DNA from: Escherichia coli
GTDB taxonomy: Bacteria > Pseudomonadota > Gammaproteobacteria > Enterobacterales > Enterobacteriaceae
Assembly: GCF_044647545.1 (NCBI RefSeq)
Contig: NZ_CP172818.1
Length of the DNA stretch: 64,000 nt
Reading direction: 5' to 3' (one strand)
Shown: positions 12,001 through 18,000 of the stretch, piece by piece
How the letters are laid out: the number at the start of each line of letters is the position of its first letter
How positions within the stretch are numbered: position 1 is the first letter of the stretch
Position numbers: made by a program

Positions 12001-15000
12001 CTTTTACCCTTGCCTCGCTTTCATCACAGTTGAGCGCTTCATCTCCCGGTAGATAATGGCTTTGCCCGATGTAGTCGATCAGTTCCTGCACCAGTACCGA
12101 CGGGAAACGTTCACTGTTATCCTGAATGGAACGCCCGATATAGCTGATATAGAGTTTTTGCTGCGCGGAAATTAACGCTTCCAGGAACAGATAGCGGTCG
12201 TCATCGCGACGGCTACGGTCGCCACGCTTCGGTTTCTGGCTCATCAGGTCAAAGCCCAATGGCGCAAGCTGGCGTGGATAAACGCCATCGTTCATTCCCA
12301 GCAGGCAAACCACTTTGAATGGGATGGAACGCATTGGCATCAGAGTACAAATGTTAACCGGTCCGGCGAGAAAACGCTGGCTGATACGTTCCTGATCCAG
12401 GCGCTGTGCCAGTTCATCACGCAATAGTGACAGCGGCACCGCGTCGCCATACTGCGCACCTAAACCTTCGGCGATAATCGCCTGCCATTGTTGTTCGATC
12501 AGCGTCATCGCCGCTTCGGTTTCCGCATCCGGCAGGAAGAAGGCGTTGAGCATATCGCGACAAACCGGCAACCACTCTTCCAGCGGACGCTCCTGCGCCA
12601 GCCCGCGACGCCAGATGTTTAGCTGCATTAGCAGTGAAGCCAGATGCCCCACCAGTTCTGCAATTAAGCCGCTCGATTCATCATAAGGTAGAACCGATTG
12701 CCACTCGCCCTGCGCGCTCTCCATCGCGTAGCCCAGCAACATGCGCGTCAGGCCAAACCGCCAGGTGTGTTGACCGGTAGCGGGGAGTTCCAGCTCGCGA
12801 ACGTTGTCGTCATCTATCCCCCAACGAATTCCGGACTCGTTGACCCACTGGCGTAAATAACGCAGCCCTTCTTCGGTGATGTCAAACCGCGCCGCCAGCA
12901 CCGGCACATCCAGTAATGCCAGAACGTCCTCCGACACAAAGCGGCTGTCTGGCAACGATAACAGGCTGATAAACGCTTCAAGTACAGGATGCGACTGCCG
13001 CGCCCGACGGTCGGAAATGGCGTAAGGTAGGTAACGATCCGCAGGTGCGCTACCAAACACAGCCTGAATAAACGGACTGTAGCTGTCGATGTCGGCCACC
13101 ATCACAATGATGTCGCGCGGAGTAAGTGTCGGATCTTCTTCCAACATCGCCAGCAGGCGATCGTGTAAAACTTCAACTTCACGCTGTGGGCTATGGCAAA
13201 CGTGGAAGGTGATACTGCTATCCAGTGGATCAAGCGGGCGTTTGTTATCGCTACGGGAAAACTCTTCGATGTTCACACCCGCAACGGCGCGGTTTTCCAG
13301 TTCCAGAATGTCAGACTGAATGTTATGCAGCAGGTTATCTGGCGTCACATCGACAAAAGCGTCCAGCTCCTGGCTGCTCTCCAGATCAGAAAGGAGATAA
13401 ATGTAGTCGCGTCCAAGCTTGCCCCATGAGGCCAGCAGCGGGTTGCCGACATCCTGTTCACCATCGCTGTTAAAGAGCTGCCCGGCATTTTCGCTGTCGC
13501 GAAATAGCGGTAATTCGCGATCTTCAAAACTGTGTCGGCGCTGGCGAGTCAGCAGTTTCGCCAGATAAGCAGGATCTTTAATGTCGCCCCAGTAATAACG
13601 GCAGGGGTTGGTAAACAGGAGATGGATTTCAATATGTTTACCCAGCGCCTGTAGCGCCTGGAGATAAACAGGCGGTAACGCGGAAATACCGCATATAAAG
13701 ACGCGCGAAGGTAGCCCCGGCGGGCAGGTCGTCGCGGACTCCAGCGTTTCGATAAAGCGCTGATAGAGATTGGCGCGGTGCCAGCGCGGTTGCCCGAGTT
13801 GATGGGTATATTCCACCAACGCCTTCCACAACGGCGCTTGCCAGGCCTGTGCTTCTCCCAGCCCTTCAACCAAATGTCCTGTTTCCCACTGTGCCAGCCA
13901 GTCCGGACGATAGACCAGATACTGGTCAAACAGGTCCGCCGCTTTTGAAGAAAGCTGGAACAGTTTTCGCTTGTCGCTATCGTCAGTCAGATAATGCCGC
14001 AACAGGGTAAAGTCTTCGCGATCCAGCAATTGCGGCAACAGAGTCATCAGTTTCCAGCTCATGCTCTGTTTGTTAAAGGCGCTCTCTTTGGGGATCTCCG
14101 ATAACACCCGGACGAACATATCCCAGATAAAGCTCGCAGGCAGCGGAAAATCAATGTTTGCCGCAATACCAAACTTTTGCGACAGGGTCATTTGCAGCCA
14201 CTGCGCCATACCGGTACTTTGCACCAGAATCATCTCTGGTTCGAAAGGATCGTCCAGCCGTTCGCGTTCGACAATAAACTCCATCAACGCTTCCAGCACG
14301 TCCAGACGATTGGAATGGTAGACCCTTAACATAGCGGCTCCTGACTACTGACGATTCGGGCAATGCAGGCGGGTCATCTCGCCTTCTCTGCCCCCGGGTG
14401 AAACTAGCGTAACGCTGATGCTGACACATCCCGCCTGCGATGTCTGCATTCGGTTGACCTGCCAGTTGGCAGGTGGCGAAATCGCACGCAGTTGCGTTTG
14501 CTGCCAGCCATGCCGCCAGAGCTGTTGGTACTGGTTTCTGCTGGCAAGACTGTTCATTAATGTTCGCTGGAAACCCGATAACGCAGTGACAATCATCACC
14601 ATCAACACCATCGCCAACATTACCTCCGGCAGGCTAAAGCCTTGTTGATTCTTCAGGGAAGCTGACATAACGCCCTCTCTTTCAGCGGACAAAAATCGCT
14701 CCAGCCGCGTGGCGAAAAAACAATGTTTCCATCGATGACTTCGCCTGTTCGCCACAACGAAACGCCTTCATAACCGGCAATCAATAAAGCCTCATTATCT
14801 GCCAATAAACGCAGACAAACCCGGGCACCGGTGGCAGCGTACAGTAAGCACTGAACTGCTGGCTGCGTCTGCCAGGAGTGCATTTTTCCCCACTCCAGCG
14901 CCGACTGAACGATGGCATGGCGGCGCAATGACTGACTTTCCATGCTCACGCGAGAGGCAAAACTGCGATCCTGTTGGCTCATTCCTTGTAATAGCAAGCT

Positions 15001-18000
15001 ACCCAAAATCAGCAGCATCAGGACCAGAGCCAGTGACGAGACACCCTTTTCGCGGTTCACAGGTTGGATCCTGTCACGCTATAGCTGGCATCCACCACGG
15101 TTTGCGGATCAGCCTTGCTGGCAGCGTGCATATTAACCGTCAACACCGGCGAGAAGCCGCTGACATCCTGACGTACGACCTGAAAAGTGTCGATAATGAT
15201 GGCATCCGGATTAGTGACTTTATCCCAGCCCTTACCTTCACAGGATGTCGCACCGCGTAGCGTTTCCAGCACATGCTCCTTCAGACGAAATCCAATCTGG
15301 TCGGACTCTTTTACCGGTTCGCGATCCCAGATACCGTTACTGTTCGCATCCCACTGCACAATGACACAGTCACCCTGTCCGACAATTTCCAGCCCTTCGC
15401 CGGTACAGCTGCCATGACAATAACCCGCCCTCTGGAGATGCTTCGCAACGGTAAATACCCGCAGCCAGATTTCATCTTCCAGCGCCAGCTTACGGGTGCT
15501 CGTTAAACTGTCACGCTGTAACGCAGGCAGAAAGCGTGCAGCCCCCAGCAACAATACGCTACTGATCGCCATAGCAATCAACACTTCCAGCAGAGAAAAA
15601 CCTTGCTCTTTTACAGGCATCCTTCTGTTTCTCCTTGCTGACAAAGCCGGAGTCTTCCCCACGGCGAAACCACCAGCCACCACTCGCCCGTTGAGTTTTT
15701 GAAGCGAATATGCCCGGCCCATGCGGTATTGCGCAGGCCAAAGAAAGCAAGCGAAGGTGTCAGATCGCTCATTTCGACTTCGGGCCAGCGTGGCACAAAG
15801 ACCAATGGTGAACTGCCATGACAGGTATTGGCCCCAGCAGCGGAACTCACAAGGCACCATAACGTCCCCTCCCTGATAACACTGATACTGTGGTCGCGGT
15901 TATGCCAGTTGGCATCTTCACGTAAATAGAGCAAATAGTCCCGCGCCTGGCTGGCGGTTTGCCAAAGCCGTTGCGACTGCTGCCAATATTGCCAGCCATA
16001 GAGCCCACTTGCGCTTAGCATGACCAGAATCAGCATCGCGACCAGCGTTTCAATCAGCGTATAACCACGTTGTGTTTTCATGCCGGCAGTATGGAGCGAG
16101 GAGAAAAAAAGACGAGGGCCAGTTTCTATTTCTTCGGCGCATCTTCCGGACTATTTACGCCGTTGCAGGACATTGCAAAATTGCGGGAAGGCGTCTCGAA
16201 GAATTTAACGGAGGGTAAAAAAAACCGACGCACACTGGCGTCGGCTCTGGCAGGATGTTTCGTAATTAGATAGCCACCGGCGCTTTAATGCCCGGATGCG
16301 GATCGTAGCCTTCAATCTCAAAGTCTTCGAAACGGTAGTCGAAGATGGATTCGGGTTTACGTTTGATAATCAACTTCGGCAGCGGACGCGGTTCGCGGCT
16401 TAATTGCAGATGAGTTTGATCCATATGATTGCTGTACAGGTGCGTATCGCCACCGGTCCAGACAAAATCACCCACTTCCAGATCGCACTGCTGCGCCATC
16501 ATATGCACCAGTAACGCGTAGCTGGCAATGTTGAACGGCAGGCCGAGGAAGACGTCACAGGAGCGCTGATAAAGCTGGCAAGAGAGTTTGCCGTCTGCCA
16601 CATAGAACTGGAAGAATGCATGGCACGGTGCCAGCGCCATTTTATCCAGTTCGCCTACGTTCCACGCTGAAACAATAATGCGGCGCGAATCCGGGTCGTT
16701 TTTCAGCTGGTTCAGTACCGTAGTGATCTGGTCAATATGACGACCATCTGGCGTTGGCCAGGCGCGCCACTGTTTACCATACACTGGCCCGAGGTCGCCG
16801 TTTTCATCGGCCCATTCGTCCCAGATGGTGACATTGTTTTCGTGTAGATAAGCAATGTTAGTGTCGCCCTGCAGAAACCACAGCAGTTCATGGATGATGG
16901 AACGCAGGTGGCAACGTTTAGTTGTCACCAGCGGGAATCCATCCTGCAGGTTAAAACGCATCTGATGACCAAAAATGGAAAGCGTTCCGGTTCCGGTACG
17001 GTCGTTTTTCTGTGTGCCTTCGTCGAGCACTTTTTGCATCAGTTCTAAATACTGTTTCATGGTTCCTCAGGAAACGTGTTGCTGTGGGCTGCGACGATAT
17101 GCCCAGACCATCATGATCACACCCGCGACAATCATCGGGATGGAAAGAATTTGCCCCATGCTAATGTACTGCACCCAGGCACCAGTAAACTGCGCGTCGG
17201 GCTGGCGGAAAAACTCAACAATGATGCGAAACGCGCCGTAACCAATCAGGAACAAACCTGAGACAGCTCCCATTGGGCGCGGTTTACGAATATACAGGTT
17301 GAGGATAATAAACAGCACCACACCTTCCAGCAGCAGCTCGTAAAGCTGTGATGGGTGGCGCGGCAGCACACCGTAAGTGTCGAAAATGGATTGCCACTGC
17401 GGGTTGGTTTGCAGCAGCAAAATATCTTCTGTACGGGAGCCAGGGAACAGCATGGCAAACGGGAAGTTCGGGTCAACGCGGCCCCACAATTCACCGTTAA
17501 TAAAGTTGCCCAGACGCCCGGCACCAAGACCAAACGGAATGAGTGGTGCGATAAAATCAGAAACCTGGAAGAAGGAACGTTTAGTACGACGGGCGAAGAT
17601 AATCATCACCACGATAACGCCAATCAGGCCGCCGTGGAAGGACATGCCGCCGTCCCAGACACGGAACAGATACAGCGGATCGGCCATAAACTGCGGGAAA
17701 TTGTAGAACAGAACATAACCAATACGTCCACCGAGGAAGACGCCGAGGAAGCCCGCATAGAGTAAGTTTTCAACTTCATTTTTGGTCCAGCCGCTGCCCG
17801 GACGATTCGCCCGACGTGTTGCCAGCCACATTGCAAAAATGAAACCCACCAGATACATCAGGCCGTACCAGTGAAGCGCCACGGGTCCTATTGAGAAAAT
17901 GACCGGATCAAACTCCGGAAAATGCAGATAGCTACTGGTCATCTGTCACCACAAGTTCTTGTTATTTCGCTGAAAGAGAACAGCGATTGAAATGCGCGCC

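What the first reader, a model, noticed from the sequence alone, without database searches (positions are those of the whole stretch)
14345..16081. Four tightly overlapping prepilin-like genes (ppdA-ppdB-ygdB-ppdC) 12 bp upstream of recC
Each gene overlaps the next by 4-16 nt, and three carry type IV pilin-like N-termini (for example GFSLPEVMLAMVLMVMIV). They encode minor-pilin-like proteins with no assembly ATPase or secretin nearby. Their fixed linkage to recC suggests co-transcription, and a link between a cryptic pseudopilus or competence-like module and recombination is unexplored.
Basis: partly seen in the sequence, partly recalled or inferred. Interest (0 to 1): 0.35.

Follow-up and report, generated by a model that had tools for sequence, protein, structure and literature searches.

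The report
Known E. coli minor-pilin operon beside recC
These are the well-known E. coli genes ppdA-ppdB-ygdB-ppdC, which encode the four small "minor pilins" that start assembly of the cell's normally silent type IV pilus / DNA-uptake fibre. Their position just upstream of recC has been described and discussed in print since 2006, so the finding is real but ordinary.

Summary
On the minus strand lie ppdA (16081-15611), ppdB (15620-15057), ygdB (15060-14653) and ppdC (14668-14345). They overlap by 10, 4 and 16 nt, and ppdC ends 12 nt before recC (14332-10964). The window is E. coli chromosome, and 5425 of 5426 complete E. coli genomes carry this stretch.

All four products are pilin-like. PpdA models as a FimU/GspH/FimT-type minor pilin. 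The link to recC is not unexplored. Cameron & Redfield (2006) used recC adjacency to equate these genes with Haemophilus comNOPQ. A 2025 paper discusses comNOPQ-recC co-localisation and Sxy control. The operon is already listed as ppdAB-ygdB-ppdC-recC. The proteins have been shown to prime pseudopilus assembly and are used to rebuild E. coli type IV pili.

My own synteny survey found thyA-ppd-recC in 13 of 13 Enterobacteriaceae species, and in Xenorhabdus and Nissabacter. It is broken in Orbaceae. The assembly ATPase, secretin and major pilin lie elsewhere in the genome (hofB, hofQ, ppdD).

Verdict: already known, low interest.

The parts
15611..16081 (-). ppdA (156 aa): minor pilin of the FimU/GspH/FimT type; ortholog of H. 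influenzae comN
15057..15620 (-). ppdB (187 aa): minor pilin; GspJ/PilW position is inferred
   Evidence: Leader [12 protein letters not shown]. Pfam N_methyl E 7e-9; NCBIfam PRK10557 E 1e-98. Weak N-terminal match to GspJ (E 2e-4), below cut-off. Overlaps ppdA by 10 nt.
14653..15060 (-). ygdB (135 aa, GTG start): DUF2509; pilin-fold protein without Glu5 (GspK/PilX-like position)
14345..14668 (-). ppdC (107 aa): small minor pilin; GspI/PilV position is inferred
   Evidence: Leader [15 protein letters not shown]. Pfam T2SSppdC E 9e-31 and N_methyl; NCBIfam PRK10332 E 3e-65. Overlaps ygdB by 16 nt.
14333..14344 (-). 12-nt ppdC-recC spacer carrying the recC Shine-Dalgarno sequence (CAGGAG); no terminator
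   Evidence: Sequence. The same 12-nt spacer occurs in 10 of 12 aligned Enterobacteriaceae. ppdC overlaps recC by 8 nt in Xenorhabdus. No terminator-like site was found here.
10964..14332 (-). recC (1122 aa), RecBCD gamma subunit; downstream gene of the annotated operon
   Evidence: The operon is named ppdAB-ygdB-ppdC-recC in PMC3936743.
16162..16203 (-). Conserved upstream block, candidate Sxy/CRP-S promoter region: TTCGA-N6-TTCCC, then TTGCAA and CTGCAAC
   Evidence: These are the most conserved intergenic columns in 12 species. T[G/T]CGA-N6-TTCC is also in Nissabacter at the same distance from the ATG. 13 of the first 15 nt are identical to the best CRP-S-like 22-mer of the K-12 ppdD promoter. 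The assignment is an inference; the TSS is unknown.
16088..16093 (-). CATACT, a -10-like hexamer ending 6 nt before the ppdA ATG; no Shine-Dalgarno sequence
   Evidence: A-11, A-9 and T-7 (counted from the A of the ATG) are invariant in 12 species. TAGAGT occupies the same place in Nissabacter. Function is unexplained.
16214..16248 (-). thyA intrinsic terminator, which insulates ppdA from thyA
   Evidence: Hairpin of -16.6 kcal/mol followed by U8, z -2.96. 100% of cells are paired across 12 species, with compensatory changes at 3 of 7 pairs and 0/500 shuffles reaching the score.

Best explanation
The four genes encode the core minor-pilin set of the E. coli type IVa pilus / competence pseudopilus.

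Steps taken from the literature or inferred:
- A prepilin peptidase (GspO/PppA, encoded elsewhere) cleaves each product after the leader Gly.
- The four proteins form a tip or priming complex in the inner membrane. This complex starts polymerisation of the major pilin PpdD by the HofB ATPase, the HofC platform, HofMNOP and the HofQ secretin, all encoded at two other loci.
- PpdA is the FimU/GspH/FimT-type subunit and a plausible DNA-binding tip pilin.
- YgdB is the Glu5-less capping subunit, equivalent to GspK/PilX.
- PpdB and PpdC fill the GspJ/PilW and GspI/PilV positions.
- Transcription is silent in ordinary culture and is switched on by Sxy (TfoX) with cAMP-CRP at a CRP-S promoter in the 184-nt thyA-ppdA spacer.

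Steps shown here:
- Gene anatomy, pilin motifs and pilin folds.
- The thyA terminator.
- The lack of any terminator before recC, so that transcripts starting at ppdA necessarily continue into recC.
- Conservation of the thyA-ppd-recC arrangement.
For: Anatomy and family matches.

Machinery elsewhere in E. coli K-12: ppdD-hofB and hofMNOPQ.

Literature:
- PpdAB-YgdB-PpdC prime PulG assembly in a pulHIJK mutant (Cisneros 2012, as cited in PMC5131608).
- All four are used as minor pilins, with gspO, to assemble PpdD pili (bioRxiv 10.1101/856302).
- The operon is Sxy-regulated and ppdA is the most strongly induced gene (PMC12616744 citing Sinha 2009 and Jaskolska & Gerdes 2015).
- They are orthologs of H. 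influenzae comN-Q by position next to recC (PMC1635313).
- comNOPQ is needed for DNA uptake in H. influenzae (PMC12616744).
- Sxy expression gives hofQ-dependent DNA uptake in E. coli (PMC3330819).

Co-transcription: the 12-nt spacer holds only the recC SD; there is no terminator; the operon is named ppdAB-ygdB-ppdC-recC.

Synteny: 13 of 13 Enterobacteriaceae species, plus Xenorhabdus and Nissabacter.
Against: - No experiment was done here: processing, complex formation, Sxy induction and read-through into recC all rest on the literature or on inference.
- The H/I/J/K position assignments for PpdB and PpdC rest only on size, order and weak N-terminal matches below family cut-offs.
- I could not locate a canonical TGCGA-N6-TCGCA site upstream of ppdA. 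There is none with <=2 mismatches, and the window-wide count is at the chance level. The candidate site has one poor half.
- recC must be expressed constitutively at a few molecules per cell (PMC6536506), so it must also have a promoter that does not depend on Sxy. I did not find it: there is no sigma-70-like site of >=9/12 on the minus strand in 13800-16600.
Confidence: 0.9

Rival explanations
1. The adjacency to recC is inherited gene order with no functional coupling. The whole lgt-thyA-ppd-recC-ptrA-recB block is simply syntenic in Enterobacterales, and recC is served by its own weak constitutive promoter. Read-through from ppdA is incidental.
For: The flanking housekeeping genes are just as collinear as ppd and recC in all 13 species. 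The cluster sits next to rpsF-priB instead of recC in Ca. Schmidhempelia and a related contig. The gap widens to 97 nt in Nissabacter, and ppdC is missing with a roughly 4-kb gap in L044. FimU/GspH-like pilin genes found in Pseudomonas, Amphritea and Neisseria loci have no recC within 10 kb. RecC is made constitutively at about 5 per cell. [quoted passage not shown]
Against: The spacer is exactly 12 nt in 10 of 12 Enterobacteriaceae, even though the ppd genes themselves diverge to about 50% identity. There is an 8-nt overlap in Xenorhabdus. The same adjacency is reported in Pasteurellaceae (PMC1635313; PMC12616744).
Confidence: 0.5
2. The genes are auxiliary pseudopilins of the type II secretion system (Gsp) rather than of a type IV pilus or competence fibre.
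For: The Pfam family of PpdC is named 'T2SSppdC'. PpdA resembles EpsH/GspH nearly as well as FimU. [quoted passage not shown]
Against: The best structural match of PpdA is the type IV pilus minor pilin FimU. Regulation is by the competence activator Sxy, together with ppdD and hofMNOPQ. The genes are sufficient, with hof genes and gspO, to assemble PpdD type IV pili. T2SS operons carry their own gspH-K (established knowledge, not tested here).
Confidence: 0.07
3. The cluster is a decaying, functionless relic that is carried along because it lies in the recC transcription unit.
For: No natural inducing condition is known (PMC3330819). The proteins evolve much faster than their neighbours: 47-60% identity where ThyA is 93-97% and RecC is 77-81%. 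ppdC is lost in one lineage. ppdA lacks a Shine-Dalgarno sequence.
Against: The reading frames are intact in the best-matching genomes and across Enterobacterales. The processing motifs, Cys pairs and the GWSDFCP motif are invariant. The proteins work in reconstituted systems. Rapid divergence is usual for surface-exposed pilins (established knowledge).
Confidence: 0.05

Closest known systems
Haemophilus influenzae comNOPQ (HI0938-HI0941), competence-regulon operon upstream of recC
   Same: Four small, similar-sized genes. The first is a FimT/GspH-type prepilin. The operon lies immediately upstream of recC in the same orientation and is under Sxy + CRP-S control (PMC1635313; PMC12616744).
   Different: [quoted passage not shown] E. 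coli is barely transformable, and no ppd phenotype was examined here.
Pseudomonas aeruginosa fimU-pilVWX core minor pilins of the type IVa pilus
   Different: The gene order differs: H-J-K-I-like here versus U-V-W-X. No pilY1 or pilE equivalent lies next to the cluster. The genes are not linked to recC in the Pseudomonas loci retrieved.
Type II secretion minor pseudopilins GspH-I-J-K
   Different: YgdB (135 aa) lacks the large alpha-helical insertion of GspK (280 aa chain in 3ci0). The cluster is separate from any gsp operon and is co-regulated with competence genes.
EHEC haemorrhagic coli pilus / E. coli K-12 PpdD type IV pilus system (ppdD-hofBC, hofMNOPQ, ppdAB-ygdB-ppdC, gspO)
   Same: This is that system. 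The window holds its minor-pilin operon.
   Different: Nothing of substance. The window strain's proteins differ from other E. coli by a few percent.

Membership tests
Type IV pilin-like proteins (class III signal peptide) | Short, positively charged leader ending in Gly, followed by a hydrophobic helix with Glu at +5 | tested here: met
   PpdA RG|YTLIE, PpdB QG|FSLLE and PpdC QG|FSLPE all match Pfam N_methyl above its cut-off. YgdB KG|VSSLA has the Gly and the hydrophobic helix but no Glu5, as in GspK/PilX.
Type IV pilin-like proteins (class III signal peptide) | Pilin fold: a long N-terminal alpha-helix packed on an antiparallel beta-sheet | tested here: met
Type IV pilin-like proteins (class III signal peptide) | Cleavage and N-methylation by a prepilin peptidase | not testable with these tools
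   Rests on the literature: gspO is used as the peptidase in reconstitution (bioRxiv 10.1101/856302).
Core minor-pilin/pseudopilin quartet (GspH-I-J-K = FimU-PilV-W-X) | Four co-oriented, tightly packed genes: one H/FimU-type, one Glu5-less K/PilX-type, and two more | tested here: met
   The overlaps are 10, 4 and 16 nt. PpdA is FimU/GspH-like. YgdB is Glu5-less with a weak GspK match. The J and I assignments for PpdB and PpdC are inferred only.
Core minor-pilin/pseudopilin quartet (GspH-I-J-K = FimU-PilV-W-X) | Primes assembly of the major (pseudo)pilin | not testable with these tools
   Literature: the proteins restore PulG assembly in a pulHIJK mutant (cited in PMC5131608).
Sxy/CRP-S competence regulon of gamma-proteobacteria | A CRP-S site (TGCGA-N6-TCGCA type, with C6/G17) in the promoter | tested here: inconclusive
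   No site with <=2 core mismatches was found upstream of ppdA. A conserved T[G/T]CGA-N6-TTCC[C/A] block at 16200-16185 has a good left half with C6 and a poor right half. It resembles the ppdD promoter site.
Sxy/CRP-S competence regulon of gamma-proteobacteria | Sxy- and CRP-dependent induction | not testable with these tools
   Literature: the operon is Sxy-regulated, with ppdA the most induced gene (PMC12616744 citing Sinha 2009). The ppdA promoter is used as CRP-S bait (bioRxiv 10.1101/284836).
ppdAB-ygdB-ppdC-recC transcription unit | Same strand, no terminator and a minimal spacer between ppdC and recC | tested here: met
   The 12-nt spacer holds only the SD. It is conserved in 10 of 12 species. 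No terminator-like site was found. An upstream thyA terminator defines the 5' boundary.
ppdAB-ygdB-ppdC-recC transcription unit | A physical transcript spanning the ppdC-recC junction | not testable with these tools
   The unit is listed as a polycistronic operon in PMC3936743. No primary RNA data were examined here.

The most novel reading that the evidence does not exclude
Nothing separates ppdC from recC, so Sxy/CRP-S induction would make recC a de facto competence-regulon gene. Its induction would shift RecC dosage relative to RecB and RecD and so tune RecBCD action on incoming DNA. This would explain why the junction is held at 12 nt (or overlaps) while the pilin genes diverge freely. A smaller novel point is that ppdA may be translated from a leaderless mRNA started at a conserved CATACT -10-like element.
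Probability: 0.15. Interest if true: 0.4.

Novelty: already known. Interest (0 to 1): 0.08.

Why it matters
As it stands the finding matters little. The genes, their pilin nature, their role in type IV pilus assembly, their Sxy control and their position next to recC are all published. The one open point is whether competence induction actually changes RecC levels and RecBCD behaviour through read-through. Authors have noted this link but, as far as I could read, have not tested it. If it were true, it would give a concrete regulatory tie between DNA uptake and the processing of incoming DNA in enterobacteria.

Tried and rejected
- A search for TGCGA-N6-TCGCA with <=2 mismatches gave 36 hits against 41.6 expected, and none upstream of ppdA. 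A naive CRP-S consensus score gave no column-consistent best site across 12 orthologous spacers.
- A palindromic Gibbs sampler timed out on the first run. The second run recovered a GCCTCGCAAA-type half-site in the ppdD, ybaV, ycaI and sxy promoters and placed ppdA only weakly.
- RNAalifold on the 90 nt around the ppdA start gave no conserved structure.
- The PpdA-pattern scan of species genomes reached true orthologs only in Enterobacteriaceae. The 18 weaker loci are generic pilins without recC nearby. Pasteurellaceae were not reached by either this scan or the YgdB profile, so the Pasteurellaceae synteny rests on the literature.
- The simple promoter scan found no sigma-70-like site on the coding strand. 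It also missed the thyA terminator, which I confirmed separately.
- My first pair-count used columns that were off by one and was redone.
- Papers not held, so not read: Sinha 2009, Finch 1986 and Palchevskiy & Finkel 2006.
- I rejected horizontal acquisition as an explanation: the GC content of the four genes (0.53-0.55) equals that of recC (0.54) and the neighbours.
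Full report
**Observation**

The window is E. coli chromosome. A 2.4-kb query around the finding is present in 5425 of 5426 complete E. coli genomes at >=95% identity, and is 100% identical to several of them. On the minus strand the genes are:

| Gene | Coordinates | Product |
|---|---|---|
| ppdA | 16081-15611 | 156 aa |
| ppdB | 15620-15057 | 187 aa |
| ygdB | 15060-14653 | 135 aa, GTG start |
| ppdC | 14668-14345 | 107 aa |
| recC | 14332-10964 | 1122 aa |

The overlaps are 10, 4 (GTGA) and 16 nt. The 12-nt spacer TCAGGAGCCGCT carries the recC ribosome-binding site. PpdA, PpdB and PpdC pass Pfam's N_methyl model. PpdC also matches T2SSppdC, and YgdB matches DUF2509. 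All four match their NCBIfam equivalogs at E 1e-65 to 1e-99.

**What the proteins are**

The processing motifs are canonical in three of the four proteins: RG|YTLIE in PpdA, QG|FSLLE in PpdB and QG|FSLPE in PpdC.

The assignment of PpdB to the GspJ/PilW position and of PpdC to the GspI/PilV position is inferred from size, order and sub-threshold N-terminal matches only.

**What is already published**

[quoted passage not shown] On that basis they treat them as orthologs of H. influenzae pulG(comN)-HI0941, part of the Sxy/CRP-S competence regulon.
[quoted passage not shown] It also reports that the E. coli operon is Sxy-regulated with ppdA the most strongly induced gene, and it comments on a functional link to transformation.
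- PMC3936743 names the polycistronic unit ppdAB-ygdB-ppdC-recC.
- PMC5131608 cites Cisneros et al. 2012 for PpdAB-YgdB-PpdC priming PulG assembly in a pulHIJK mutant.
- PMC3330819 shows Sxy-induced, hofQ-dependent DNA uptake in E. coli and discusses RecBCD as a limit on recombination.

The claim that the link is 'unexplored' therefore does not hold. The 'missing' machinery is simply elsewhere: ppdD-hofB and hofMNOPQ are annotated in K-12. Within the part of the window that is collinear with the reference there is no type IV pilus ATPase or secretin.

**Independent test of the linkage**

A degenerate-pattern scan of one genome per species with a PpdA alignment returned 13 Enterobacteriaceae loci. 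tblastn with the window's proteins found lgt-thyA-ppdA-ppdB-ygdB-ppdC-recC-ptrA in all 13.

The four pilins diverge far faster than their neighbours. For example, at the Enterobacter/Kluyvera distance:

| Protein(s) | Identity to the window's proteins |
|---|---|
| PpdA, PpdB, YgdB, PpdC | 47-60% |
| ThyA | 93-97% |
| RecC | 77-81% |

Even so, the ppdC-recC spacer is the same 12 nt, with CAGGAG, in 10 of 12 aligned species.

A YgdB profile searched against 1.84 billion cluster representatives found only 187 relatives. Sampling their contexts gave the following (names):

- Xenorhabdus keeps thyA-ppd-recC, with ppdC overlapping recC by 8 nt.
- Nissabacter keeps the arrangement with a 97-nt gap.
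- One contig has PTS genes inserted between thyA and ppdA.
- One contig lacks ppdC and has about 4 kb before recC.
- In Candidatus Schmidhempelia (Orbaceae) and a related contig, the four-gene cluster sits between an epmA-like gene and rpsF-priB, not near recC.

The weaker PpdA-like hits in Pseudomonas, Amphritea, Neisseria and others have no recC within 10 kb. The linkage is therefore strong in Enterobacterales and, by the literature, in Pasteurellaceae. It is not universal.

**Transcription**

thyA ends in a hairpin of -16.6 kcal/mol followed by U8. The stem is paired in 100% of cells across 12 species, with compensatory changes at 3 of 7 pairs. ppdA is therefore insulated from thyA and needs its own promoter in the 184-nt spacer.

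The most conserved spacer columns are T[G/T]CGA-N6-TTCC[C/A] (16200-16185), then TTGCAA (16178-16173) and CTGCAAC (16168-16162). The first block recurs in Nissabacter at the same distance from the ATG. Its first 15 nt are 13/15 identical to the best CRP-S-like 22-mer of the K-12 ppdD promoter.

I regard this block as the likely Sxy/CRP-S region, but I could not confirm it. No site with <=2 core mismatches exists there, the right half-site is poor, and the papers listing the site are not held.

Downstream, nothing resembling a terminator separates the four genes or ppdC from recC. Any ppdA-initiated transcript must therefore enter recC. recC is nevertheless made constitutively at about 5 molecules per cell (PMC6536506), so it must also have a weak Sxy-independent promoter. 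I did not find one.

**An unexplained detail**

ppdA has no Shine-Dalgarno sequence. Instead a CATACT hexamer ends 6 nt before the ATG. Its A-11, A-9 and T-7 (counted from the A of the ATG) are invariant in 12 species. An invariant TCG lies at -34 to -32, and Nissabacter has TAGAGT in the same place. The geometry is that of a -10 element for a leaderless mRNA. No conserved RNA structure is predicted there. This is a lead, not a finding.

**Verdict**

The best-supported mechanism is a Sxy/CRP-S-induced minor-pilin priming complex for the PpdD type IV pilus / DNA-uptake fibre, with unavoidable read-through into recC. Whether that read-through has a function is the only open question. The data are equally compatible with plain inherited gene order. 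Interest is low.

Noticed in passing
window 7002-7007 (recB, minus strand; ORFs 4366..7116 and 6927..7916): recB is frameshifted in the window. A C7 run in the closest genomes is C6 here, which splits the 1180-aa gene into ORFs of 916 and 329 aa. The same 61-mer occurs in 46 of 5303 complete genomes. In the one genome I checked (RM14723), recB is annotated 'frameshifted'. This is probably a long-read homopolymer error, but it could be a real recB null allele.
   Followed up: partly
window 16088-16093 and 16113-16115 (minus strand, upstream of ppdA): ppdA has no Shine-Dalgarno sequence. A CATACT hexamer with invariant A-11/A-9/T-7 relative to the ATG, and an invariant TCG at -34..-32, are conserved in 12 Enterobacteriaceae and in similar form in Nissabacter. 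This suggests a -10 element for a leaderless mRNA.
   Followed up: partly
window 16162-16178 (minus strand): A direct repeat, TTGCAA-N5-CTGCAAC, is conserved in nearly all 12 Enterobacteriaceae spacers but not in Nissabacter. It may be a -35 element or a regulator site; its function is unknown.
   Followed up: no
L003-L015 versus window 14345-16081: The four pilin proteins are 47-60% identical between genera in which the flanking ThyA, RecC and PtrA are 77-97% identical. This makes the cluster a fast-evolving island inside a highly conserved block. GC content is the same as that of the neighbours (0.53-0.55).
   Followed up: partly
L037/L038 (Ca. Schmidhempelia) and L043: In Orbaceae-type contigs the ppdA-ppdB-DUF2509-ppdC-like cluster lies between an epmA-like gene and rpsF-priB-rpsR instead of next to recC.
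   Followed up: partly
L044 7424-11528: A metagenomic Enterobacterales-like contig has thyA-ppdA-ppdB-ygdB, then about 4 kb with almost no called genes before recC. ppdC appears to have been lost, which may indicate a decaying genome.
   Followed up: no
window 28007-28094 and 28210-28291 (minus strand): The tandem sRNA genes OmrA and OmrB lie between aas and galR (Rfam 96.6 and 86.1 bits).
   Followed up: no
window about 42000-52200: A remnant of the ETT2 type III secretion island (ygeG, ygeH, orgA-, escJ-, eprH-like genes) ends near a tRNA at 51198-51268. It is much shorter than in strain FDAARGOS_497, which keeps sctN, sctV and sctC. The window therefore comes from a different strain with a K-12-like ETT2 deletion.
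   Followed up: partly
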